A stretch of DNA of 62,814 bases, the filler included, from Collodictyon triciliatum (lineage: Eukaryota): the NCBI GenBank assembly GCA_043381765.1. It is 6 parts of 6 records of this genome, joined end to end, with 100 filler letters (N's around TTAATTAATTAA, not from the genome) between each part and the next. Parts side by side here need not be neighbours in the genome. Positions count along the whole stretch, not along the records: positions 25,907 to 38,715 come from JBHJMP010002096.1; 5 more parts are not named here. One strand, written 5' to 3'. Each line of letters begins with the position of its first letter. Position 1 is the stretch's first letter. The position numbers were made by a program, and so were the translations under genes. Under the pieces are notes generated by a model that worked only from the letters and a program-made list of their open reading frames with translations, made no database searches and was not told the DNA's origin. This document shows, one piece after another, positions 16,101-59,661 of this stretch.

Positions 16101-16918
16101 AAAAAATATAAATGTATGTTCCGTTAACAAACAGTGCGTAGATTTTTTTTCCCGCGTTTAAGTTGAGGAAAATATATTGTTGGTTGGGTCAAAAATCATA
16201 ACTTTGTTGATAATTTTTTTTTTAAAAAAAAAACTTTTGAATATAGTAAACCTTCGTCTAGTGGCATCTGAGTTCTCAGAGAAGTCAGCTGAGCGATCTG
16301 GCTGAAAAAAGACCCCATGGCGACCTATAGTATAACTCATAGTTTTGAAGACTGAAATTATAGTTTCATTTTTGCGTCCGCAATTCGGGTTTCGATTTTG
16401 ATTCTTTTAAAAAGAGTATCAATTTAATGTTTATTTTGTACTATTTTTATCCATATCTTTGATTATTCTCCATTCCCACCTTGATTTGATTTTGGTCTTG
16501 CTGCGCTAGAGACGTTATATGGCTCTCAATTTTTATGATTATGTCAAATGCGTTGATTGAGATCTGAAAAATGAAATGAAAAAAATGCTATCTCAAAAAA
16601 ACTACGCTTTCGATAGTTACATTTTCAACCAGATACACTTCGGCGGATATTATATAGCCAGCCAATTTCATAAAAGGATTACATGATGATTACAGAAAAT
16701 GCAAACTTACATTTCCATCTGGATGAGATAAAATTTCGCTGACAAAAGGCAACATAATAGTAATCGGTGGAAGTGGATTTCCCTCTTTTTGTGATCACCA
16801 AATTGAAGAGACATTTTTAGTAAGCAACATTAACTGAGCGTATAATATTTTATAATAATAAGTAAATAAAACTTTGAATCGAATAAAGGAAAAAAAATAA
16901 TAAGTAAATAAATAAATA

Positions 16919-17014
<96 letters not shown>

Positions 17015-20000
17015 GCAAATAAAAACGTATAGAATGTATACAAAATCAGATTTATTTACTGGTAAAATTAAGCATAAGTTACAAAATTAATCTGCGTGAA
17101 AAGAGAGAAAAATGGTATTTTTATAACACAATAACATCCGGAATCAGTGTTTACCTCCAAGCAAACCAGGTATAAATAGGACAGATGTGTGTGATTCAAA
17201 TATTTCTCTGATCAATAAAGCAACGGAACTACATATTTCATTACTTTCGTCTAAGAAAAATTGTAAATTAATATCTAAGTGCAAATATCAATCGAAATTA
17301 TTGCGAAGAATATGTATTGATGGCATCAAGAAATTACACAACAAAATGATTTAAGAATATCGGTTTTAAAGTTGCATATAATATATTTACCTTCTTTTGC
17401 CTTGGCAAAAATTTGGGATAAAGTGTTTACTTTTCCAAAGAACTCTACGAATACAACATATAATTCAGGAGGGACCTGTTTTGAAAGAATATTCAGAGTA
17501 TGTAACTTCAAAGTGAAGTATTTATTTTGGAATTTTAAATGAATTTTTCTTTTCTTCTTTTCTTGCTTTGTAAGATTTTTAAAATAAAAATTTTATGGAA
17601 CAGAAACCTCATTTTCGAAGGAACATTGAAGAAAGTCAGTGGCTACTTGAACAAGATTAGGCACTTGAATCATTTGAAAGAATAAGTTCATCGCTCTACT
17701 TTTAACTAGGTCACTAATCGCAGAGAACCAAATATGTATTAAATTATTCATCGCCCATTATTAAGATATATCAATCAGCGATGGCCAACAATATTTATCA
17801 TCTTGATTATCCAATACGATATTAAAAAAATTATTTCTTTTTCTTTATTGATAATGTTTGTTTTCAATGTTTTTTTTTTCCATGTTTTTTCAATGTTTTT
17901 TAGATGGTTTTTTTTTAATGTTTAACATTGAGCAAAAAGTTGAATCTACCTCATAGAAATTCCAAACTCAAGCCAGCTTTTTAGGCATTTGATTGTTTGG
18001 TGCTGAATGGCCTCGTCTCTTGATTCGAAAATAGTCACGCATAGAGAAAGGAGGTTTGCACTCTGGTTCTTTAGAATTGTTTTTATCTTCCTCCTAAAAT
18101 TCCCAAAAATAACCCCCACAGAAAAAGTAATTGTTGGACATCTTTGTTTATCTTTCATAAGGAAAAGAACAGTAAAAAGAACAAATATCTTGTATATAAG
18201 TAATTGGTTTTTTTTATGTTGCATACGAGTCACCACAAGAAGAACCGGGATAATTTTGTTCCTCCGGAATAAAGCATAGAATTTCGAGACCTATGAATCT
18301 ATTTGGTTAAATTTATTTTATTTTAAGAAAGAAAAAGTATTCTGGTACATCGTATTCGAGGATCTGATCTCATTTGGATCATTTTAATGATGTTCATAAA
18401 AAAAAATGTCAGGAGAATTATTCCAAATGAAAAAAAATTGGATTCGTTAAAATAATATGAATTTCTTGAAATGAGTGAACCAAAAAGGGGAAGTGGAAGC
18501 ATTGGAAGACCTATTTGAGTGATCTTGTGAAGAACAAAGACCAAATAATACATCCAATCCATTAGGAAGGTCTTCTACAAGTCCATAGAGAACTATATTC
18601 CGTTTTAGATTATTCAAAAGACACCGATATATATATACCATGTAAATATAAAACCATAGATCTAATATTCTTTTTAAAAATAAAAAGGAAAAACATATCA
18701 TGAATTGATTATATTTTGATTAGATATCCATATTCAAAATACGTCTAAAGAAAATAAATATGAAAATCCGAAATAGACAGAATAAAGCATGTCGTTATCC
18801 GAGTACAGAAAAATAAAAGAAAAGAACCCCTACTAATCGCAGCGAGTAATTGAGCCGATTTTGAAAAAACAGCCTTTTGCTGTAGTTTGCTTGGTATTAA
18901 CTCAAAAATAGATTGTCTGAGAGCTGATTTGGCTTCTTGGGACAAAGCTGACCTAATGATTGAGTTGTGAGCAACTAAATTATGAAGATATATTAATTCT
19001 TGGTAATTTCTTTGTGTATAATAATGATTCTATTCAAGAGGGCCCCAAATCCAATTTAAGAATTAAAAAAAATTGTAGAAAAATAAAAATGGAAGATGAT
19101 ATAGCAACTATGTAGAAACTCATGAATGTAATTGCAATAAGGTTTGATAAAAGAAGACTAAAGTTTTAGCGGTTGGAAACACCAGTGTGATGGATTGTAG
19201 CGATAACGAAACAACTCTTTAATTCCGTCTCTCTTAATACTATAGATATATATCTTTCGAAATTAAAGGAGTCATCAAAGTGACTAATGAAAATAGACCA
19301 GGAAGAGCGAATCTTTTCAAGCAGGGTCAAAGCTCCAAAGAATTGGAATGCCGGGTCCTAAGGTGAAAACAGCTCGATGAGCACTATGTTATATATTTTT
19401 TTTCTTTATTCAATGAACAGTATGCTATATAAAATCAAGAAAAGAAAAGAAAATAACTAAAAGGGTGTAATCTTTTCATAGTATACGAATATGCGACAAA
19501 GGTATTTAAGTCGAAAAGAGCGATTTGCGATTGGATATTATATACATCATAAAGTGAAACGAGTTTAAAAATTGTGAATACGGGATGATTAGTTAGGAGT
19601 TGTTGAGAAAATGTCCAAGCAACATCGTGCTTGTAGAAATCTCGAAGAAAGCGATCTGCCCCAGCTTTCTGGGAGGGGTCGGTTCCGTGGTAAAGAACTG
19701 ACAGTGCCTTCGAAAAGGAAATTCGTTGTTTATATCTTAAAAAATACAACAAATGAATGAGTATGTCCATCATAGAAATATTGTGTTTTGTTTGTGTGCT
19801 TCTTGGGGATGGAGATTAAATGGTAATCTTAGTAATAATCTTTATTATGATGATAGCGATAATTAGAATGGGAACGAGATTGACAATTACAATTACAATT
19901 ACAATTACAATTACAATTACAATTACAATTACAATTACAATTACAATTACAATTACAATTACAATTACAATTACAATTACTATTACTATTACTATTACTA

Positions 20001-20865
20001 TTACAATTACTATTACAATTACTATTACAATTACTATTACAATTACTATTACAATTACTATTACTATTACTATTACTATTACTATTACTATTACTATTAC
20101 TATTACTATTACTATTACTATTACTATTACTATTACTATTACTATTACTATTACTATTACTATTACTATTACTANNNNNNNNNNNNNNNNNNNNNNNNNN
20201 NNNNNNNNNNNNNNNNNNNNNNNNNNNNNNNNNNNNNNNNNNNNNNNNNNNNNNNNNNNNNNNNNNNNNNNNNNNNNNNNNNNNNNNNNNNNNNNNNNNN
20301 NNNNNNNNNNNNNNNNNNNNNNNNNNNNNNNNNNNNNNNNNNNNNNNNNNNNNNNNNNNNNNNNNNNNNNNNNNNNNNNNNNNNNNNNNNNNNNNNNNNN
20401 NNNNNNNNNNNNNNNNNNNNNNNNNNNNNNNNNNNNNNNNNNNNNNNNNNNNNNNNNNNNNNNNNNNNNNNNNNNNNNNNNNNNNNNNNNNNNNNNNNNN
20501 NNNNNNNNNNNNNNNNNNATCACTATCACTATCACTATCACTATCACTATCACTATCACTATCACTATCACTATCACTATCACTATCACTATCACTATCA
20601 CTATCACTATCACTATCACTATCACAATCACAATCACTATCACAATCACTATCACAATCACAATGATAAGCGTTAGAATTATAATTAAGAATTAAATTAG
20701 AAATAAGGTTGAATAAATAAAAAAATATATATATTTGCCATCGATCTTCATTAAATCGATGTTGTATGCAGATATTAGGAATGTGGACAATAAGGCTAAA
20801 CAAACCAGGCTAAATGAAAATGGATGGAAAGTTACTTGAATGACTTGCTGGGTGAGCTCTACCAT
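13171..20865 (-). CDS. Importin-beta family karyopherin (importin-13/transportin-3-like), multi-exon, 3'-truncated at contig edge
   Basis: MVELTQQVIQ / ALSVLYHGTDPSQKAGADRFLRDFYKHDVAWTFSQQLL / FQFFGALTLLEKIRSSW / LSQEAKSALRQSIFELI is an IBN_N-type N-terminus. It is followed by helical repeats such as IKCLKSWLEFG. Confidence 0.82.
16871..16895 (+). mobile_element. 25-bp poly(A)-tailed retro-insertion with 17-bp TSD, in an importin intron
   Basis: ACTTTGAATCGAATAAAGGAAAAAA lies between direct repeats AATAATAAGTAAATAAA (16854-16870, 16896-16912). Confidence 0.7.
19884..20663 (+). repeat. Compound hexamer microsatellite (ATTACA/ATTACT/ATCACT)n in the first importin intron, interrupted by a gap
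   Basis: Directly visible tandem hexamers. Confidence 0.95.
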
Positions 20866-35310: not shown

Positions 35311-35852
35311 ATTCACTCTGACGCGTGGACAGTTTTGTGTCGCTGTGTGCTTTCAGGCGACCGAATAGTGTCGTTTAGTACAGCGCCGCTTTGACTAAAA
35401 GGCACAGGAGAGGATGCGCGGAGTGAGAAGAAGGATAGTTTGCCTTGAGAGAGAAGCGTGTGAATGGATTCGACTTTGATGAAGGGAGAGGAAGAGCGAA
35501 TGGTGTTGATGGAGCTCCACAGAGGATCCACGGCTGTTGGCAGAGCGGTTTATTTTATTTGTTTATTTATATTTTTTTTTTAAAAAAAAAAAAAAGTTGA
35601 ATGAAGCGTAAGATGTCTTGCAGTGGATTGGTGGCTGACAGAGCGGTTGCCAAACGATTAAATGCTTTCGTGGTTCGTGTTTGCGGTTCTTGATTCGATG
35701 ATTTGACTGGACATTGCCAAACCCCACACCAAAAAAAAATAATATTATCTCAACGGTCAGATTCCCGTTGCGCTTTCGAATCACTTATGGATCGATATAT
35801 TTGGAATATATGCCAATTGCTTATTCCTTACTTAATGGACTGATATTGTCTA

Positions 35853-35975
35853 CTAGAAGGGGTATACAATCTTTCGATTGGCAAACCTTGTCCGTTAGCA
35901 TCCAAAGTCTCGCCACTTTTTTCACAAAGATTGAGTAGTGGTGAACACTGCCAGGAAAGACCTAACAGCCTGATT
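35853..35975 (-). ncRNA. Candidate Fanzor omegaRNA scaffold, copy A
   Basis: Non-coding 3' end conserved with copy B. Four predicted stems, including GCTGTTAGG/CCTGGCAGT and CAATC-GAAA-GATTG. No expression evidence. Confidence 0.6.
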
Positions 35976-37849
35976 TTTTAAAGAGAGGTGTGTACATTTT
36001 TTGAAGGATTAAAAGAACTTTCTTGAGTATATTTTTAGCGCTGTTAAGTCCCTTGTCAAGAATACACTTTGCTTTCTGAGCGATTACATTCTTTACATAT
36101 GATACATCTAAACACTTTTTTCGTTTTTCCTTTCAGTTTCATATAATCCAGTTCTTTTTCGCAGTTGCAACACATCTTGGAGGTTCTAAATTACAATAAC
36201 TGCTTCAAAACGTTTGGATAGTATTTTTCGTAATCCCCTTCCGATTGTTGCCATAAAATGGTTGATCGGAGATTTTCTGCTCCAGTCTCCATACGCCAGT
36301 ACAACATCCTTGCCAAATGTCTTCTCGATTCCGTCCATAAACAATTCTTCACTTCTTTTTGTATTAAGATAATGCCTCTATATCATCTTTCGAAAAGTGA
36401 CGTGTTCATAAAATCTGGATAATTCTATCTGGTATCTTGATATCATAGATACACATTTTCGATATTTTTCATAATCAACTGTGCACGAATTATGTTTACT
36501 CAGTCCTGTCTCTAAATCGATTAAAGATATTCTTGATGTCTCAAACCACTGATTCTCTTCAAAAGTCATTTGACCAAAAGAAATAGCACTTTGTAAACCT
36601 GTTGCCATGCATATCCCTGAAGCGTTGTGCTTTTCTTTTTTTTCTCGCGCAAGAGTATTTTGTGTTTTTAAGAGATTTGCTATAGTGTCTTCTTTGGTGT
36701 AGTGTAACGTAATTTCTTACCTGCCTCATCCACCATGTAAACCAAATTAAACTTGCCTGCGTCCACTCCAACTATTATTTTTTTTTTGTCGCTAATAAAG
36801 ATAGTCGCTCTTCGGAAAGTTCATCTATATAAACATAGTCTTGGGTTTTTGATTATTATACTTGATTTTTGAATTTGAAATACCTTTCTTTTCAAACAAT
36901 AATGACACCGCCAAGCCGTCTGTTTGTATCATGTATTAAATATTGTAGTCTGTTTGAATACCCTCCTCTTCATTTCAAAAAACCTATCCCATAGGGTCTC
37001 TTTGCATCCTGATATATTAGTCTTTAATAATGATTTTTTTTCCAGTTGATACCAACATATCTGTCAAACATGCAGTATCTAGACTAATATGACATGGTAT
37101 ATTGGTAGTTCTTATGGGTATTTAGTTGAAACAGTTTGGTTCCAATGTCCTCAAAAATGCGATTCATGTAAATCAGACATGGAATGTACTTATTTGGATT
37201 GACTTTGACATCATGTTCGATACCATTTACAATATCGCTGGGAATGATATGATGCAAATGTATTGCAGCCCATTCTTTATATTGTTCCTTTATTTCGAGA
37301 TTCTTGAAGAAGTCTTTTTTAACTTTCGTAACTCCGCCTTTTTAATAGCTTCCGTAATGTTCTTGTCTTTAGGAACTGTTTGATTTATAAAGCGCAGAAA
37401 CCTCTTTACAAAATGACCCTTAATGTTATTATGATAAGCTGTTAACATTTGCTTCGCCAACTGCGGTAATACACGAGATAGTCCAACGAACGGAAAGCGT
37501 TCTTTCCGGGGCAAAATGAATCGAAAATCATTGATGTAAAAAGTCATCATGTCGTCTCTCATATCTGGATGTTTTAATATTGTGTGTCTATCTTGTGAAA
37601 CTATTCCGACTGTCTTTAAAGTGTACAAAAAAACATTTCATCGATTGTTGGGAGTTGTGATTTCAATATGTAGCATCTTGCAAACAGATAAGTGTCGGTA
37701 ACCAAATTATGACACAATAAAGCCGTATCGTTGATTTCGTCATAGTCATCGGGATTCTTTACAATCGACCTTGGAGATGCTTTCACATTTCGATAGTCTG
37801 GTTTTACAGACTTTACATTCTCAGACTCAAGACGTTTTCTTTTCTTCAT
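35962..37849 (-). pseudogene. Fanzor (TnpB-like RuvC nuclease, Fanzor1-type), frameshifted
   Basis: Fragments: MLTAYHNNIKGHFVKRFLRFIN, IQTDGLAVSLLF, RuvC-I VGVDAGKFNLVY, VVLAYGDWS...TIGRGLRK, FRTSKMCCNC...CKEC zinc finger, RuvC-III TRD..SAKNI. Multiple frameshifts and stops. Confidence 0.88.
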
Positions 37850-38715
37850 GTGAAAGTCTTTGTTTTACTTTTTTTTTCCTTTAGATAACCACCGATTTTT
37901 CAATTTGATAAAACTTTAGTCAAATAGTCAATTTAATATATAAAACAACTGCACAAAATCAATTCAGGTAAAATTAAGCATCTACCGAGACTTTCAAAAT
38001 GTGCGCATTGTGGCAAACAGACACGCAAAGATTTTTTACAAGTGATTTGAGATAAAATGATGAGAGTCGATTTGGCGAGCTCGAAAGGACGGCCATACGG
38101 CCATTTCGACTGAAAGTCAACATATCGGCCCCAAACAACACGATTACCGCCGCAAGTGTGGATAGTATGTTTTTTTGAAATGCATGTTTGGTGGCTGGTT
38201 TATAGGGTGGGTTCTTTCTGGGCCAAAGCAAGGGCTTGTTTGTAGTTTTGAATTTCTATGATATTATTACAAAATGGAAAATAAAATATAAATTGATTAC
38301 AGGAATATAATGAAAGATTATTAAGTATTTTTAACCTTATTATATATACTAATAATACTATTGTATTATTCAGGTTGTTTCTTGGATTCATCAATGCTCC
38401 TGCTTTTTTCAATCCAGATTTAATTCGATGGTTGTCTGTGCAATAAACTGCTATATCCGTGGGTACACTTTCGTTGTATAAAAAGTGGTGTGCTTTGAAA
38501 GGGGTAAACCCTAGTTCGTCACAACCTTTGTAATGAAGTTTATCCATTAACAGGCTGAATGAAATCGAGGAGAAAGGAGAAGGAAAAGGAGAAGGAGAAG
38601 GAGAAGGAGAAGGAGAAGGAAAAGGAAAAGGAAAAGGAAAAGGAAAAGGAAAAGGAAAAGGAAAAGGAAAAGGAAAAGGAAAAGGAAAAGGAAAAGGAAA
38701 AGGAAAAGGAAAAGG

Positions 38716-46918: not shown

Positions 46919-49900
46919 TCAAAGGGTTGGTTGAGGCTGTATTGGCTCAGAATTATCCGCTAATATAATCGTCGCATCGCCGGCTGGGGTTTCGACGACC
47001 ATATCCTTTGGAGCAGATGTATTCTGTAGATTAGGTTTGGTAAATTCATTTGTATTATAAAACACAAAGATGGCGTTGATTAAATTGAGAGATGATGTGG
47101 GTTTCACATGGATATATCAAAAGTGAGTAAAATGTTAATTTCTAATAAAAGTAACGTTACATACTGGGGCGATTATCCTCAAACTTTCCTCTGCATCACA
47201 GACAACTAAAAGCAAATAAAGAGAATTATGACCAACGATTCCTTTAATTAGTTAAGGGGAAAGTGAAATATTGCTCTGCATTTTTTTTTTTATTAAAAAA
47301 ACAATTCATAATCCCTTTTCTATAAATTCAAAATGCACCATCAAAGGCAAAAAACTATTGAATTTAATTTGACTCTAAAAATATTTTGAATCGAACAAAG
47401 GAAAAAAATTGACTCTCGAATTAAAGAATACTGATTTACACATACAAATTATGTAGAAAGACGATAAGGACTCTATTAATTTATTTTTTTTGGAAAACTA
47501 AACAGATGAATGAGTATGAAACCTTTTTGTAGTTGGCCACTGATATGCGAAAACGCGGAAGAGCATTTTGGGCACCTTAGAAGAGTCTGGTTGTTGGCAT
47601 GACAGGAAATAATTGTACCACATTCCAAACATTCTACATGTGTTTGAGACTTTTTGCATAATTCACATGTGATTGGTATTCCAGACACGTATTTGACCAT
47701 TGTACACGATTCACATCCGGTACAAACATAAACGATGTTAATTTGATCGCAATTTGGGCACGTATGTAAGGGTGCATCATTCAAAGTGATTTGAACAGGT
47801 TGAAGACACCCTGAGCATATCGAGAGAAGATGTTGTGTTTTGCAAGTGCAGCATTCTATTTTGCCTTGGCAGGCTGGAGAGATTACGGTGTAATCGGAAC
47901 ATTTTGTGCAAGCGACATATGCACATGACTGGAGACACAAGAAGCAGAGAAATGTCTTCTTTGGTGTAGAAACAGGGACGATATTGGTTTGAAAGCACTC
48001 TTTGCATTTTCCAAAGTAATTCACTTTGTGACACCTGCGACAAACGCAACTCCAGCTCCCTTCCTCCAGTATCAATATTTCGGTGCGACAATGTAAACAG
48101 GTATGGTTCAATTGAACTTGCCTGCAGGTTTCGCAGACATTATCAGCCATTTCCTTGCCTGCGCGATATTTTCAGGTCAAATGGTGTGGTTAGGTCACGC
48201 TGTCATGATATTTTGGCTCTGTTCCGACAGGATATTCACCCACTCAGATTAATTTCAGAATTTAAAATAAGAATAGGGAATGAAAATATGAATTTAAAAT
48301 ACGAATTAAATAAAGAAACACGAAGACTTGATTGCAGACCGTACCTTCAAACATATCGTTGCAAATCGCACATGTTTTCAGCTGCTCCTAAAAGAAAATC
48401 TTAAGTATAGCGATTTAACCTTTTTGAATTAAATAAAGAAAAAAAAAGGGCACTCTTTCATTTTGAAGACTAGGAAAAAGGGGCACCTTTTTAAAGGAAC
48501 ATCTGACACAAATGAAATAATAAGAAAATATGCAACCTCTGATGGAGTGACATCGAAAACGTTTCGAGGGTAAAATGGTGGTGGACGAGCAGAAGGTTTT
48601 CCAATCATGGCAGTTTGCGCAAGGGATAGTACACCAGGCGATTCATCTCGATAATTACCTTGGAATGGTTCTACATTTGAATCCACAGCGCTCGTATATG
48701 AGAGCCTGGAAGGTAATTGCTTCTGCCTTTTTGATGTGGAGGAGTCGGAATACACATGAAAAGTGATGCTTGAGCTCTGCTCAATTACTTGTGAGTTTCG
48801 AACAGTTGCCATCTGATGTGACTTCCGAGATAGTTTTTTGGTTGCAAACTCGGTTTCCTCTGACTTGTTTCGTTTCCTTTGTGTGCCACATAGCAATGAG
48901 GTATTGCTTCTGTAGAAAACTCCTTTAGACAAGCCTTTCGATTGGAAAGCGTGAATATCATTTCTATACATAACAAGTAGTTCTTTGGTTTCTGGGTGGG
49001 GATTCATATCCATAATTGACTGCATGAGATTGAGAAAGCGTTCATAATCTGCAGGTGAGCAATAAATAGAAAAGGGATTCATGAGTCCAAATATAATTTT
49101 GTCTATGTTCTCTTTGATGCGGGTATGAGCTGGAACATCCCATTCTGCACAGCTATCGAATACATCAAGAGCAAACATAGACTGCAGTTGTCTGAAATGC
49201 GATTTAAAAATATTTGGATTGAAAATATCTGTTTTTGAACCTATAGTCAAATAATTACTTAGGAAGGATATTACAAATATGTGCAAATATGTTCATATAA
49301 AAAGAAAGAAATTTTTTTATTTCTAATGTATTGCATAATTATATTGCATTAAAAATTAACCTGTGAGAACTCTATCTTTTATATCTTCGAAAAGTTGGGC
49401 TGAAGATTTCGATTTCAAAGATATGGCTGTATTTACAAAACTTGTGCAGGACAAATTCTGTTGGAATATATTCGAATCTATTGGGAATAAATTCAAAAGT
49501 GTAGAGCGAACCAAAAATTGAAGCTCTCCTTTTGTCATTCGAGAAAATAAGTCATTCTCTGATGCTCGAGGGCACTTATCCTGATCAACTTCCGGTGAGT
49601 CGTCTCGAGAATAGATAGTGATAATCGGAAGTCCACACAAGAAAGGGTATAAAAGCACAGATTCGTGCGTGTTTTCCATAGCAAATCGATAGAGGTTGGT
49701 TGAAGGGTTCAAAATTAAGCAGAGCTTTTCTTCAAAAGCCGGTGTCCAATTTGTATCGTACACAATAGCATTTATCGTAGGAAGAGTCACATAGATTGGA
49801 GCATCGATAGAGCTTACCAAGACGATTTCACCTTTCCTTGGACTTTCCATTAGCTCGATACGATTCTGTATCTGAAGATAATCACTAGCGGCATCCAAAA

Positions 49901-51486
49901 CCACAACTTGGCGATTAGAGACTGCGATTTGTGATGCAATAATGGGGAGTAGTTTATCATCAGATGTAAAAATTACTGTTGCCAGCTGGTTTGAATCCAA
50001 ACTTTCAAGCAAAGATATTAAGACGGTAATTTTGGAGCACATATTTCCAGAGGATAGTGGCTTCATCCATTCAATAGATAACAGTTCACGATGTAAAAGT
50101 TCTACGTTTTGTAACAAAAACGGATGATTCACAACTTTTTGAGTTAGTCGGATGAATCGAATCAGAAGTTCTCGTGAAGGTTCATTCTGACAAAAATTTG
50201 AAGCGCATGAGAAATATATGGAGCGCATTAATGCTTTCTGAAAATTTGTTAAAGGGACTAGTATCAAATATTCGTTTTCTAAACTCATGACTACCGTTCG
50301 GTTGGATAAAAAGCGTGATACAGTATCAGGCCTAATAAGTGACTCTAAAATGTCTTGATGATGTGAGGTGTGAACAGAGGAAAGCCGATTTCTTAAAGAA
50401 ACATGATTTTGAGGTGTATCGCAGTTAAGGAAGGAATACTGTTTCCATAAATCCACATAAGAAAATTTCTCTTGTAAGGGAAATGTGAGAAGGCGAACTC
50501 TCGAGTCGAGCCTGGACATATTTCTCAAAAAATCAGACCCTTCTTCATCTTCACTAATTCCATTCATGCCAACAAGAACTAGAACCAACCATGTTAGTTG
50601 GCTAAGATGATTGTAGTCCCGCACAAATATTTCATAGGTGGTGAGCAGAATATTGAATTTAGGTCGCATAGTTTGTTGTGGTAGCTCCATAATCAAATCG
50701 TTAGCCCGAATAAACGAGCGTTCGGTCTCTGGCCCAACATACTCAACAGCGTACCATTCTGGAATCCTGTGAACTAGTGCAGACCATTGAGCTATAGTTG
50801 AGGGAGAATCTGACGGGCATATAATTATTGAAGGGAGGTCTGAATAGGATGCCTTTGATGCTTGGTGAATAAAGGTGACCAACTAATATATTGTATTCGC
50901 ATTTTACAGTTTAGATTTGATACATGTTTTTTAAATATAAATACGGATACGGTATGCATAGTTATGTCGCTAATTTCGGTATTACAGAAAAAGCCAGCCT
51001 TAACTTATAAACTTTTATACTCACTGTTTCTTCGGGATGCAAATTTTTGTCATCGAAATATATCGTGGGCCTGAATTGATTTAAAGACTCGTATAATTTG
51101 ACATGAGCTGCCAGCTGATATATGTTCAGGCTTGAACTAGATGGGTGTATCGATTCACAGAAAAGGTTTTGATTTGGATGCAAGCGTTGTCTCTGACTTG
51201 GGTCTAAGTTGGGGTACTTTCTCCTTATGAATGCTTCCAACTAGAGGAATGGTCGAAGGGTAAAAAATCAATATATAAATTCTTTAAATATAATTCTTTA
51301 TACTGGAAAAAAATGAAAGTCTTATAAAAAAAGCCAAAAAAATGAAGACGACCTTAGTCTTCTCTTGTGATATCCAAATATCATGTTCCCACGATGATTC
51401 GATATAAGGGAGACTATTCCACTTCACAAGGTAAATATTTCGAAATGTCTGTGGACATCGCTTACATTGAAGTATTCTATCGACCT
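46919..51486 (-). CDS. CHD-like chromodomain + degenerate SNF2 ATPase + tandem CxxC zinc fingers, 5'-partial
   Basis: Chromodomain VDRIL..YLVKWNSLPYIESSWE. SNF2 motifs KFNILLTTYEI, LVPLTNFQK, LTQKVVNHPFL and SKITVLISLL. In-frame phase-1 splice MFEG/KEMADNVCETC leads into the Cys-rich exon. Confidence 0.75.
47377..47408 (+). mobile_element. 32-bp poly(A)-tailed retro-insertion in an intron of the CHD-like gene
   Basis: ...TTTTGAATCGAACAAAGGAAAAAAA lies between TTGACTCT repeats (47369-47376, 47409-47416). Confidence 0.55.
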
Positions 51487-51715: not shown

Positions 51716-51882
51716 CATAAATAACAACATAAACAACAACATAAACAACAACATAAACAACATAANNNNNNNNNNNNNNNNNNNNNNNNNNATAAACAAC
51801 ATAAACAACATAAACAACATAAACAACATAAACAACATAAACAACAACAACAACAAAAAAAAAAAAAAAAAAAAAAAAAAAA

Positions 51883-51947
<65 letters not shown>

Positions 51948-52369
51948 GGATTGCGAGATCTCGCTGGCGATCACAATTGCAATGCGGTTAGGTGCTTTTG
52001 AAAAGAGTTGACAAAACGTTTGCCGTTCCGTCAATTTACTTTGTCTCCATCAAGACCCAACAGTCTCGTGCTTCGACCACGGTATCGAAAAGGATACTGA
52101 GGAGGAAAGTAGAACTGGAAAATCATCACATTTTCAATAAAAGTCCCGAATGTTTTGAGCCGGTATAATAAAGGACGCGAAGATCCCAAGCCGTGGCGTT
52201 CAAGACATCGGTTTCCAAACGCGATCGAAAAAACATAACGATCTACAAAAATGAAAAAAAAAACACACACATTCGAAAGAGTCGCGCATAGGAAAGGCCT
52301 CTGGAACATACTTTTATCTATGAGATACCGTACTATTTCATATGGAAATGATTATCAAATATCGATTTA

Positions 52370-52490
52370 CTGGAAGGGTTTACAATCTTTTGATTGGTAA
52401 ACTTGGTCCACTAGTATCCAAGGTCTCACCACTTTTTTCAAAAAGAACGTGTAGTGGTGAAGGCTGCCAGGAAGGACCTGACAGCCTATT
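52370..52490 (-). ncRNA. Candidate Fanzor omegaRNA scaffold, copy B
   Basis: Stems at 52461-52487 (11 bp), 52426-52433/52453-52460 (8 bp), 52402-52422 (5 bp) and 52378-52402 (10 bp plus a bulge). Confidence 0.62.
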
Positions 52491-54527
52491 TTTAAAAGAG
52501 AGGTGTATGCTTTTTTTTGAAGGATTAAAATAACTTTCATGAATTTTTAGCGCTGTTGAAGCCCCTTGTCAAGAATACACACTTTGTTTGCTTTCTGAGC
52601 GATTGCATTCTTTAAATACGAGGCATCTATACAACTTTTTTTTTGATTTTCCTTTCGGTTTCATACATTCCAGTTCTTTTTCGCAGTTGCAGCACATCTT
52701 GATGTTCAAAATTCATCTACACTAACTGTTTCAAAACGTTTGGATAGTATTTTCGTAATCCTCTTCCAATTGTTGGCATAAAATGTCTCATCGGAGATTT
52801 TCTACTCCAGTCTCCATACGCCAGTACAACATTCTTGCCGAATGTCTTTTCGATTCGTTCCATAAACAATCCTTCACTTCTTTTTGTATTAACATACTGC
52901 CTCCATACCATCTTTCGAAAAGTCATCATGTCCATAAAATCTGGATAATTCTATCTGGTATCCTGATTCCATAGATACATACTCTCAAAATTGTTCATAA
53001 TCAACCGTGCATGAATTACGTTTACTCAATTCTGTCTCTAAATCGATTAAAGATACTTTTAATATCTTGAACTGCTGATTCTCTTCAAAAGTCTTGTGAC
53101 CAAAAGAAACAGCACTTTGTAAACCTGTTGCTATGCATATTCCTGAATCATTGTACTTTTTCTTCCTGCGCAAGTGTATTTTGTGTTTTTTAAGAGATTT
53201 GCTATCATGTCTTCTTTGGTGTGCCGTGTAACGTAATTTCTTACCTGTCTCATCCGCTATGTATACCAAATTAAACTTGCCTGCATCCACTCAAACTAAT
53301 TTTTTGTCGGTAATAAAGATAACTGTTCTTCGGAAGGTTCATCTATATGAACATATTTTGATTTTTTTTGTTTATATTTGGATTTTGAATTTGAAATACC
53401 TTTCTTTTCAAACAATAATGACACCGCCTAGCCGTCTGTTTGTATCATGTATTTAAAATTGTAGTCTCTTTGATGAAAGACCCTCTTCTTCATTTCAAAG
53501 AACTCATCCCATAGGGTCTCTTTGCATCCTGATGTATTCTTCAGTAATTTTTTTTCAGTTAATACTTATATATATCAAACATGCAGTATCTATGGTAATA
53601 TGATATGGTATATTGTTAGTTCTTACAGAGATTGGTTGAAGCAGTTTGGCTCCAATGTCCTCAAAATGCGATTCATGTAAATCAGACATGGAATGGACTT
53701 ATTTGGATTGACTTTGACGTCATATTCGATACCATTTACAATATCGCTGGTAATGATATGATGCAAATGTATTTTAGCCCATTCTTTTTATTGTTCTGGT
53801 ATGTCGATTTTCCTGAAGATTTTTTTTTTAACTTTTGTAACTCTGCCTTTTTAACAGCTTCCGTAATATTCTCATCTTTAGGAACTCGCTATCACTGATT
53901 TCTTTCCAGTGCTAGCCTCTCCAGGGTAGTGTCTTCTCCTACTCGCGTTTGCTCTCTCCCATGCGCTCTCATCCCGCCCCTTTGTATGGCATTACCTCGC
54001 TACACTTTGAACCGAATAAAGGAAAAAAATTCTCATCTTTAGGAACTGTTTGATTTATAAAGCGCAGTAACCTCTATACAAAATGTTCCATATGGTTATT
54101 ATGATAAGCTGCTAACATTTGCTTCGCCGAGTACGGTAATACATGAGACAGTCCAGCCAACAGAAACCGTTCTTCTCAGGACAAAATGAATCGAAAATGA
54201 TTGAGATAAAAAGTCATCATTTCTTCTCTCATATTTGGATGTTTTAAAAATGTGGGTCTATCTTGCGTAACTACTCCGACTGTCTTGAAAGCGTACAAAA
54301 AAAAAAAAACGTGTCATCGATTGTTGGGAGTTGTTGTGATTTCAATATGTAACATCTTGCAAACAGATAAGTGTCGGTGACCAAATTATGACACAATAAA
54401 ACCGTATCGTTGATTTTATCATAGTCATCCAGATTCTTTACAATCGACTTTTGAGATGATTTCACATTTCGATGGTCTGGTTTTACAGACTTTAGATTCT
54501 CAGACTCGACGTTTTCTTTTCTTCATC
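52490..54527 (-). pseudogene. Fanzor (TnpB-like RuvC nuclease), frameshifted and interrupted by a retro-insertion; 3' end approximate
   Basis: VDAGKFNLVYIADETGKKLRYT, VVLAYGDWSRKSPMRHFMPTIGRGLRK, VSVDEF, MCCNC, TRGFNSAKN. Confidence 0.88.
53887..54029 (+). mobile_element. 143-bp poly(A)-tailed retro-insertion (truncated non-LTR/SINE-like 3' end) with 18-bp TSD
   Basis: Absent from copy A. Flanked by TTCTCATCTTTAGGAACT (53869-53886, 54030-54047) and ends TTTGAACCGAATAAAGGAAAAAAA. Confidence 0.88.
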
Positions 54528-55232
54528 TGAAAGTCTTTGATTTTCTTTTTCCTTTAGAAAACTACCGAGTCTTCAATTTTTATAAAACTTTAGTCAATCA
54601 GTCATAGTCCATTTAATAAAAAAAAAAAAAAACTGCACAAAATCAATTTAGGTCAAATTAAACATCTACCGAGATTTCCAAAATGTGCGTATTGTGGCAA
54701 ACAAACACAAAGTTTTTTTTATAAGTGATTTGAGACGAAACGTTGAGAGCCGACTCGACGAGTTCGAAAGGACGGCCGTATAGCCATTGTGGCTGAAAGT
54801 CAACATACCGGTACCAAACAACATGATTGCTGCCGCAAGTGTGGATAGTATGCTTTTTTTGAAATGCGTGTTTGGTGACAGGTTTACAGGGTGGGTTCTG
54901 TCTCGACCAACGCAAGGGCTTATTTGTAATTTTTGAGTTTTATCGATTTTTTTTTATTCTTCCTGTCAATTTTGCGCAGAATGGCGGAGGTTTCATATAT
55001 TCGGTTTCATTTCAGTTTATTTGACATGTGGGGTGGCGGAGATTTTTGGTGTGCCACTGGTAACTTCACAAAATATTGGTTTCGTGGTAAAATGTGCTGA
55101 TTAAATACGGGTATTCTTTTTTGGAGAAGGGGAACAAGAAAACATGCCTCCTGATGAATACGCCGAATGTACACCACGTGATGCAATTAAAATGAAATAT
55201 ATACTATAAACCCAAATAATTAAACACATCCA

Positions 55233-55735: not shown

Positions 55736-59661
<3,926 letters not shown>

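What the first reader, a model, noticed from the sequence alone, without database searches (positions are those of the whole stretch)
35853..38261. Fanzor (eukaryotic RNA-guided nuclease) carried by a ~2.4-kb transposase-less element, present twice
Seen: two colinear, diverged copies on different contigs (35853-38261, 52370-54946), each with one decayed minus-strand ORF. The ORF has RuvC-I (VGVDAG), a YGDWS..PT.G.GLR segment, RuvC-II (VDEFRTSK), a CxxC..CxxC finger and RuvC-III (RD.NSAKNI). Known: this motif order defines TnpB/Fanzor OMEGA nucleases, and Fanzor1 is carried by diverse eukaryotic transposons. Inference: this is a multi-copy Fanzor1 family in this protist. Two copies in ~63 kb suggest many more genome-wide, possibly including intact ones.
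Basis: partly seen in the sequence, partly recalled or inferred. Interest (0 to 1): 0.92.

Follow-up and report, generated by a model that had tools for sequence, protein, structure and literature searches.

The report
Dead Fanzor1 nuclease transposon copies
Two badly decayed copies of a jumping gene that once encoded a Fanzor1 RNA-guided DNA cutter sit in this protist scaffold; the kind of element is well known, so the find is a new example, not a new system.

Summary
Two colinear copies lie at 35851-38268 and 52368-54953. They differ at 12.6% of aligned bases and by 30 indels, and each carries one minus-strand ORF remnant. Read against the closest intact relative (P0001, 648 aa, about 60% identical), copy 1 has 12 frameshifts and 1 stop. 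Copy 2 has 10 frameshifts and 13 stops. Substitutions are spread evenly over codon positions, so both copies are neutrally decaying pseudogenes.

A profile of the intact relatives matches only Fanzor1 chains in the PDB (SpuFz1, PpFz1, GtFz1; E 1e-42 to 1e-46). The predicted fold of P0001 also hits those chains first. The family shows the Fanzor1 signatures: DPG, TDG, GDW, the alternative glutamate, a C4 finger and RD.

The nearest relatives (Pfam DUF8286) are mostly giant-virus proteins. The window copies and P0001 form a separate long branch. Public runs hold hundreds of diverged contig pieces of the element, so the family is multi-copy. Several lesions of copy 1 are private to it.

The "2.4-kb transposase-less element" is not established, because contigs bridge the supposed 5' end. 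I saw no intact copy, and the guide RNA is only a candidate. This is a new member of a known kind.

The parts
35851..38268 (-). Copy 1: the stretch shared with copy 2 (GC 0.352)
35936..37849 (-). Copy 1 Fanzor1 pseudogene: colinear with P0001 residues 1-642, 378 of 629 aligned residues identical. It has 12 frameshifts and 1 stop (TAG at 36378-36380). The alternative-Glu codon is lost in a 4-bp deletion near 36186-36191, and the RD/NSA motif is split by a 1-nt frameshift near 36046-36061.
37850..38268 (-). Copy 1 non-coding 5' leader shared with copy 2 (65 of 414 aligned bases differ). Its open frames are not conserved between the copies and have no Pfam match.
35856..35969 (-). Three hairpins (35969-35947, 35945-35909, 35893-35856) over the last codons and the 3' end, shared with copy 2 (52485-52372). 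This is the candidate omega/reRNA scaffold. The last hairpin ends about 9 nt before CTAG|T.
38269..38500 (.). Stretch upstream of copy 1 that copy 2 lacks but that is also repeated in public runs. Diverged contigs bridge 38124-38492, 38174-38425 and 38259-38487. It is either more of the element or a repeated target.
52369..54940 (-). Copy 2 (GC 0.356), between the two 9-bp direct repeats
52452..54526 (-). Copy 2 Fanzor1 pseudogene: 381 of 631 aligned residues identical to P0001. It has 10 frameshifts and 13 stops (3 of them inside the insert). G362 codon is now a stop, RuvC-III D is now G, and zinc-finger C587 is now F.
53887..54028 (+). 142-bp insert in copy 2, flanked by perfect 19-bp direct repeats (53868-53886 and 54029-54047). 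On the + strand it ends with AATAAA and an A run, so it looks like a retroposed SINE-like piece.
52360..52368 (.). 9-bp direct repeat TATCGATTT, 3'-side copy; candidate target-site duplication of copy 2
54941..54949 (.). 9-bp direct repeat TATCGATTT, 5'-side copy
35841..35847 (.). 7-bp direct repeat TGATATT, also at 38259-38265. It is a weak candidate TSD of copy 1 (a match this long occurs in 203 of 5000 random window pairs).

Best explanation
These are two old, dead insertions of one multi-copy family of a Fanzor1-bearing DNA transposon in the nuclear genome of a poorly sampled freshwater eukaryote.

When intact, the element encoded one intronless protein of about 648 aa. It had an N-terminal basic stretch (MKKRKR), REC and WED domains with the TDG motif, and a split RuvC with DPG, a GDW strand, the alternative glutamate (NEF/DEF-RTSK) and RD-NSA-NI, with a C4 zinc finger in between. 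Its last about 120 nt would have given the omega/reRNA scaffold, whose guide is read from the DNA just beyond the 3' end.

By analogy with the Fanzor1s and TnpBs that have been assayed, the protein-RNA complex would cut a TAM-flanked target that matches the guide, which helps the element persist or home. This last step is inferred. Transposition itself would need a transposase that was not seen here.

Both window copies have lost the reading frame and catalytic residues and do nothing as nucleases now. Since they split from a common master they have drifted neutrally.
For: Identity. A profile of three intact relatives hits only Fanzor1 chains in the PDB. There are 3 distinct sequences at E<=1: PpFz1 at 2.6e-46, SpuFz1 at 1.4e-45 aligned end to end, and GtFz1 at 1e-42. 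The AF2 model of P0001 (pLDDT 78.3, pTM 0.76) finds the same three Fanzor1s as its top 7 Foldseek hits (E 4e-20 to 4e-23, TM 0.50-0.62). Cas12f, TnpB and Fanzor2 follow only at E 1e-5 to 1e-3. In a 40-sequence family alignment, D364-P365-G366, T312-D313-G314, G521, W523, E555, S559, C562, C565, C587, C590, R603 and D604 are invariant, and T558 is nearly so. These fit the published signatures (passages of PMC3627910, PMC10711439, PMC10530073).

The window copies belong to this family. tblastn and my frameshift-aware alignment are colinear over P0001 residues 1-642, with 378 of 629 and 381 of 631 residues identical. In the tree they form a 100% SH-aLRT clade with P0001.

Both copies are dead. 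Copy 1 has 12 frameshifts and 1 stop; copy 2 has 10 and 13. The indels include lengths of 2, 4, 5, 6, 7 and 10 bp. Mismatches by codon position are 72/622, 65/624 and 81/622, chi-square p 0.36.

The family is multi-copy. Runs X2 and X5 laid 496 and 489 contig pieces, spread over all identity classes. Depth is zero below about 35794. Most contigs read TGG at copy 1's TAG stop, and many carry the bases missing at several of its frameshifts.

Candidate RNA. Three hairpins are shared by the two copies. Copy 2's 3' region folds with z -4.26; 0 of 200 shuffles fold as well.
Against: The window fragments alone reach no Pfam threshold; the best is PF07282 at E 0.064. NCBIfam TnpB models match none of 4 relatives. 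No TIRs were found.

The 5' end is unresolved. Copy 1's 3' region folds no better than shuffles (z -0.12). With two sequences there is no compensatory change (0 of 53 pairs), and Rfam has no match, so the guide RNA is only a candidate.

Both window copies read DAG where 40 of 40 relatives read DPG, so even their master may have been impaired. No intact copy, no transcript and no activity was seen.
Confidence: 0.9

Rival explanations
1. The true mobile unit is longer than 2.4 kb. Copy 2 is a 5'-truncated insertion with its own 9-bp target duplication, and copy 1 is cut off by the assembly gap. The unseen 5' part may carry the transposase, for example of a Helitron2-like element that makes 5'-truncated copies with TSDs of variable length.
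For: Diverged contigs from 4 of 4 laid runs continue across 38268 to about 38490, and depth stays high to 38500. Copy 2 is flanked by a 9-bp direct repeat; a match this long occurs in 29 of 5000 random window pairs. The 3' end has a hairpin, then about 9 nt, then CTAG|T in copy 1 and CCAG|T in copy 2. Chlamydomonas Fanzor1 families CRe-1 to CRe-3 are 5'-truncated with 7-19-bp TSDs (passage of PMC3627910).
Against: Copy 1 has a 7-bp direct repeat at the matching position (203 of 5000 by chance). That would fit a real 5' end at about 38258 in both copies. The 38269-38547 stretch has no Pfam match. No Helitron protein or 5' end was seen. The hairpin is AT-rich and could equally be the last stem of the guide RNA.
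Confidence: 0.45
2. The copies are fragments of endogenised giant-virus DNA, not a transposon family of the host.
For: The nearest protein clusters are 92-100% viral (Nucleocytoviricota) and carry DUF8286. Four IMG/VR loci, one of them a giant-virus MAG, encode relatives at 34-39% identity, next to a helicase, a topoisomerase II domain, RING and DUF4116 genes. The element's GC is 0.35 against 0.39 for the window.
Against: Only the Fanzor unit is repeated. It has a sharp 3' boundary with unrepeated flanks. Copy 2 has a candidate TSD. The window copies and P0001 sit on their own long branch (0.93), not inside the viral groups. No exact match of a conserved 24-nt pattern was found in the viral contigs.
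Confidence: 0.05
3. The genes are intact. On this reading the apparent damage comes from introns, a variant genetic code or homopolymer assembly errors.
For: Some frameshifts lie in A/T runs of 7-10 bases, and copy 1 has only one stop.
Against: Many indels are 2-10 bp long and lie outside homopolymers. TAA, TAG and TGA all occur in frame in copy 2, so no single reassignment rescues it. The alignment to P0001 has no intron-like gaps apart from the TSD-flanked insert. Substitutions ignore codon position. Copy 2 also has D->G and C->F changes at catalytic and zinc-binding residues.
Confidence: 0.03

Closest known systems
Fanzor1 nucleases with solved structures: SpuFz1 (Spizellomyces punctatus), PpFz1 (Parasitella parasitica), GtFz1 (Guillardia theta)
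   Same: Full-length profile match (E 1e-42 to 1e-46) and the same fold (TM 0.50-0.62). The order REC/WED, RuvC-I, GDW, alternative Glu, C4 finger, RuvC-III is the same. The size, about 650 aa, is close to the 590-607 modelled residues of SpuFz.
   Different: Only 18-20% identical in the structural alignment. The window copies are pseudogenes. The TAM, the guide RNA and any activity are unknown.
Giant-virus 'transposase' proteins of Pfam DUF8286 (PF26935), including UniRef A0A6C0CSH1 from a viral metagenome
   Same: All 120 listed homologues of P0001 carry PF26935 and are 37-46% identical. The nearest Atlas clusters are 92-100% viral. The invariant motifs are the same.
   Different: The window family and P0001 form a separate clade on a long stem. 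The window family sits in a eukaryotic scaffold as a dispersed, decayed repeat, not as a single intact gene in a viral gene array.
Fanzor1-only 'non-autonomous' transposon families of Bao & Jurka 2013 (e.g. CRe-1 to CRe-3 of Chlamydomonas, CMe-1A of Cyanidioschyzon, PUl-4)
   Same: A multi-copy element whose only visible gene is Fanzor1. The 3' end is sharp and the 5' end is fuzzy or truncated. There is a candidate TSD of unusual length (passages).
   Different: No ends shared with a known transposon superfamily could be shown. No intact copy was seen, whereas CMe-1A keeps intact ORFs (passage).
Fanzor2 / IS607 TnpB
   Same: Same superfamily, RuvC with the alternative glutamate.
   Different: No Fanzor2 or TnpB chain is matched by sequence at E<=1. 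ApmFz2 and ISDra2 TnpB appear only at Foldseek E 6e-4 to 9e-4. The 648-aa P0001 compares with resolved chains of 466 (ApmFz2) and 362 (TnpB) residues. No TnpA lies next to it.

Membership tests
Fanzor1 | Core motif D-X(125,275)-[TS][TS]-X-X-C4 zinc finger-X(5,50)-RD (Bao & Jurka 2013) | tested here: met
   P0001 has D364, then T558 S559 (193 residues between), C562/C565/C587/C590, then R603 D604 (12 residues between). All are invariant or nearly so in 40 relatives. The window copies carry the motif in damaged form. The motif is quoted from passages of PMC3627910.
Fanzor1 | RuvC signatures DPG and the alternative RuvC-II glutamate (the extra conserved G and E of Fanzor1) | tested here: met
   D364-P365-G366, G521 and E555 are invariant in A5. 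The features are named in passages of PMC10711439, PMC10530073 and PMC3627910. In the window, both copies read DAG, copy 2 keeps VDEF, and copy 1 has lost the Glu codon.
Fanzor1 | TDG motif of the WED domain | tested here: met
   T312 D313 G314 are invariant in A5. Both window copies read QTDG. The feature comes from a passage of PMC10711439.
Fanzor1 | Sequence and fold similarity to Fanzor1s shown to be RNA-guided nucleases, closer than to Fanzor2, TnpB or Cas12 | tested here: met
   the only sequence hits and the top 7 fold hits are Fanzor1.
Fanzor1 | omega/reRNA encoded at the 3' end of the gene and transposon (three-stem scaffold) | tested here: inconclusive
   Three shared hairpins lie at 35969-35856. 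Copy 2 folds with z -4.26 and copy 1 with z -0.12. There is no compensatory change in 53 pairs, and Rfam has no match.
Fanzor1 | Carried by a eukaryotic or viral transposon with recognisable ends (TIR/TSD or Helitron ends) | tested here: inconclusive
   No TIRs were found. There is a 9-bp direct repeat around copy 2 and a 7-bp one around copy 1. The 5' end is contradicted by bridging contigs.
Fanzor1 | RNA-guided, TAM-dependent DNA cleavage | not testable with these tools
   Needs expression of an intact family member together with its 3' region.
Fanzor1 | N-terminal nuclear localisation signal | not tested
   MKKRKR begins P0001 and both window copies. No NLS predictor was run.
Fanzor2 / IS607 TnpB | Close similarity to TnpB, with an IS607 TnpA serine recombinase beside it | tested here: not met
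   No TnpB or Fanzor2 chain at E<=1. NCBIfam models match 0 of 4 relatives. No second gene lies in the shared unit.
Helitron / Helitron2 non-autonomous element | 3' subterminal hairpin about 10 nt before a CTRR end, a 5' end shared with an autonomous Helitron, insertion without a TSD (or a variable TSD in 5'-truncated copies) | tested here: inconclusive
   A hairpin, about 9 nt, then CTAG|T (copy 1) or CCAG|T (copy 2). There is a 9-bp repeat around copy 2. The 5' end and Rep/Hel were not seen. The CTRR rule is partly from a passage and partly recalled.

The most novel reading that the evidence does not exclude
The family is, or recently was, alive in this protist. On this reading an intact Fanzor1 of about 648 aa, from the otherwise giant-virus-dominated DUF8286 clade, crossed between virus and host. 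It then multiplied to dozens or more copies by a one-ended, Helitron2-like route that leaves 5'-truncated copies with TSDs of variable length. Its three-hairpin 3' end would serve both as the transposon end and as the guide-RNA scaffold.
Probability: 0.2. Interest if true: 0.5.

Novelty: new member of a known kind. Interest (0 to 1): 0.3.

Why it matters
Fanzor1 nucleases, their carriage by many kinds of transposon and their presence in giant viruses are all in print (PMC3627910, PMC10530073, PMC10711439, PMC11423790; I read passages only).

This locus adds a host-genome, multi-copy branch next to a clade that is otherwise seen almost only in giant-virus contigs. That is one more data point for the old idea that viruses ferry Fanzors between eukaryotes.

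If an intact copy exists in the full genome, it would be a new compact Fanzor1 orthologue about 60% identical to P0001, and its native guide-RNA region is already delimited. The two copies in the window have no function left.

Tried and rejected
- **Whole genome.** None is held for this window, so I could not make a genome-wide copy census or search for an intact ORF.
- **Pfam on ten single-frame fragments.** Only sub-threshold hits; the best relevant one is PF07282 at E 0.064.
- **DNA of P0001's own contig.** The metagenome scan returned one distant locus (21% identity; 1 of 184 candidate stretches), so no three-way comparison of the ends or the RNA was possible.
- **Sequencing runs.** 9 runs were listed, all with small shares (<=0.10), and no RNA holder was listed. 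X2 and X5 are only guessed to be RNA, so nothing can be said about expression. Depths from contigs are not copy numbers.
- **TIR search at both ends of both copies.** Only chance-level 6-9-mers turned up.
- **Covariation in the 3' RNA.** Two sequences give no power. Paired columns differ less than unpaired ones (7/106 vs 32/154), but the structure was derived from the same two sequences.
- **Rfam.** No match at the gathering threshold over the window, and none at E<=1 over either 3' region. No tRNA was found.
- **Exact 24-nt pattern of the best-conserved hairpin in viral contigs.** 0 matches.
- **Placing the host by a conserved host ORF (49359-50882).** The best hits are only 23-24% identical (2 proteins at E<=1e-10).
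- **Earlier notes of this scan.** Nothing by place or by sequence.
- **Literature search for DUF8286 / PF26935.** 0 papers.
- **Intact genes hidden by introns or a variant code.** Rejected.
Full report
**What is there.** The window is a gapped eukaryotic scaffold with 19 N runs. It has long host-like ORFs, for example a helicase-like ORF at 49359-50882 whose best database hits carry SNF2 and helicase domains. BLASTN shows two colinear copies: 35851-37377 and 37360-38268 against 52368-53886 and 54030-54953, each about 85% identical. A global alignment gives 299 mismatches in 2380 aligned columns (12.6%) and 30 indels. The flanks are unrelated. The copies lie on different contigs of the scaffold.

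**The gene.** Single-frame fragments are too short for Pfam; the best relevant hit is PF07282 at E 0.064. A 176-aa stretch of copy 1, read through one TAG as X, found three full-length proteins (3 at E<=0.01 among 410 candidates). The best is P0001, 648 aa. tblastn and my own frameshift-aware alignment show both copies colinear with P0001 from Met1 to about residue 642. Copy 1 runs 37849 to 35936, with 378 of 629 residues identical, 12 frameshifts and 1 stop. Copy 2 runs 54526 to 52452, with 381 of 631 identical, 10 frameshifts and 13 stops.

- There are no intron-like gaps.
- In copy 1 the alternative-glutamate codon is deleted and the RD/NSA motif is split between frames.
- In copy 2 a stop replaces G362, the RuvC-III Asp is Gly, and zinc-finger C587 is Phe.
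- Both copies read DAG where 40 of 40 relatives read DPG.
- Mismatches between the copies are even over codon positions: 72/622, 65/624 and 81/622, p 0.36.

The divergence is therefore neutral decay after the two copies left a common master. Indels of 2-10 bp outside homopolymers, and in-frame TAA, TAG and TGA in copy 2, rule out assembly error or a variant code as the whole story.

**Family.** A profile of P0001-P0003 matches only three distinct PDB sequences at E<=1, all Fanzor1. These are PpFz1 at 2.6e-46, SpuFz1 at 1.4e-45 in a single end-to-end stretch, and GtFz1 at 1e-42. An AlphaFold2 model of P0001 from a 40-sequence alignment (pLDDT 78.3, pTM 0.76) has those three proteins as its top 7 Foldseek hits. 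Cas12f, TnpB and Fanzor2 follow at E 1e-5 to 1e-3 (31 matches at E<=0.001). The invariant columns of the alignment reproduce the published signatures:

- the D...[TS][TS]..C4...RD core and the extra conserved G and E of Fanzor1 (passages of PMC3627910);
- DPG, the alternative glutamate and the TDG motif of the WED domain (passages of PMC10711439 and PMC10530073).

NCBIfam's prokaryotic models match 0 of 4 relatives. [quoted passage not shown]

**Relatives.** P0001 has 244 homologues at E<=1e-3 among 7037 candidates. All 120 listed carry PF26935 and are 37-46% identical. Many lie on contigs of 15-254 kb, and one bears the UniRef name "Transposase, viral metagenome". The Atlas names PF26935 as DUF8286, and its nearest clusters are 92-100% viral, mostly Nucleocytoviricota. 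Four IMG/VR loci (4 of 387 candidate stretches) encode intact relatives at 34-39% identity. Two of them sit beside a helicase, a topoisomerase II domain, RING and DUF4116 genes.

I built a tree of 47 rows: 40 of the 120 listed proteins, picked by me along the list; P0027, P0133 and P0138; the ORFs of L002 and L004 (L001 and L003 left out); and the two window read-throughs with X at each break. The window copies and P0001 form a 100% clade on a 0.93 stem, apart from all 44 others. The tree is rooted at the midpoint only, so it shows no direction of transfer.

**Copy number.** No genome is held. Nine public runs share a few words with the stretch, and four were laid on 35600-38500. Two small single-organism runs laid 496 and 489 contig pieces, and two freshwater metagenomes laid 92 and 183. 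The pieces fall in all identity classes; for X2 the counts are 43, 114, 171 and 168 at >=99, 95-99, 90-95 and <90%. Up to 22 contigs cover one position.

- Depth is zero below about 35794, which gives a sharp 3' boundary.
- One metagenome contig spans 35735-35928 with a single difference, so this very locus occurs in a freshwater sample.
- Most contigs read TGG where copy 1 has its TAG stop.
- Many contigs carry the bases missing at copy 1's frameshifts near 36045, 36067, 36664, 36701 and 37124.

Those lesions are therefore private to copy 1, and the family consensus is probably open. The contigs are under 500 bp, so they cannot show an intact gene.

**Ends.** The 5' end is not settled. Contigs of all four runs, about 10% diverged, bridge 38268 and continue to about 38490. 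Some skip 84 bp (38243 to 38328). Copy 2 has nothing similar upstream, and the stretch has no Pfam match. On the other hand, copy 2 is flanked by a 9-bp direct repeat; a match this long occurs in 29 of 5000 random window pairs. Copy 1 has a 7-bp repeat at the matching place (203 of 5000). No TIRs were found.

There are two possible readings. Either the unit really ends near 38258/54940 and often lands in a repeated target, or the element is longer and copy 2 is a 5'-truncated insertion with a TSD. The second reading resembles the 5'-truncated, TSD-flanked Fanzor1 families of Chlamydomonas (passage of PMC3627910). The 3' end has a hairpin, about 9 nt, then CTAG|T (CCAG|T in copy 2), which is Helitron-like. 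This is a lead only.

**Guide RNA.** The last about 120 nt hold three hairpins shared by both copies (copy 1: 35969-35947, 35945-35909, 35893-35856). This recalls the three-stem reRNA described for Fanzor1 (passage of PMC10711439). Copy 2's region folds far better than shuffles (z -4.26; 0 of 200), but copy 1's does not (z -0.12). All 53 predicted pairs are kept in both copies, with 7 one-sided changes and none compensatory. This is not a test, because the structure came from the same two sequences. Rfam has nothing.

**Verdict.** The "2.4-kb transposase-less element" and the hope of intact copies remain open. The two copies are dead. The kind of element is already known, so this is a new member of a known kind, of modest interest.

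Noticed in passing
window 53868-54047: Copy 2 carries a 142-bp insert (53887-54028) flanked by perfect 19-bp direct repeats. On the + strand it ends in AATAAA and an A run, which looks like a LINE-mediated retroposition of a SINE-like or processed RNA. A contig in metagenome run X3 has similar letters at the equivalent place of copy 1 (table 5c), so other copies may share the insert.
   Followed up: partly
window 16871-16896, 47385-47410, 57821-57843: A 23-26-bp motif from the tail of that insert recurs at three other places in the window (87-96% identical). It may be the shared 3' tail of a retroposon family.
   Followed up: no
window 38269-38560: The stretch upstream of copy 1 is as highly repeated in runs X2 and X5 as the element itself. 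It has no second copy in the window and no Pfam match.
   Followed up: partly
window 36760s and 53280s (RuvC-I motif): Both window copies read VDAG where all 40 aligned relatives have an invariant DPG proline. The master of this family already carried the change.
   Followed up: partly
window 38568-38715, 19900-20660, 23500-23700, 28100-28450, 51720-51900: Long microsatellites (GAAAGG-like, TA/TAA-like and TGTTT-like units) abut many of the N runs. Contig breaks in this scaffold seem to fall at simple repeats.
   Followed up: no
window 49359-50882 (-): A 508-aa open frame of a helicase-like host gene has database hits of only 23-24% identity. The host appears to be a very poorly sampled eukaryote.
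   Followed up: partly
L002 and L004 (IMG/VR contigs): Intact 619- and 652-aa relatives sit as single genes between giant-virus-type genes: a helicase, a topoisomerase II domain, RING and DUF4116. I did not look for their transposon ends.
   Followed up: no
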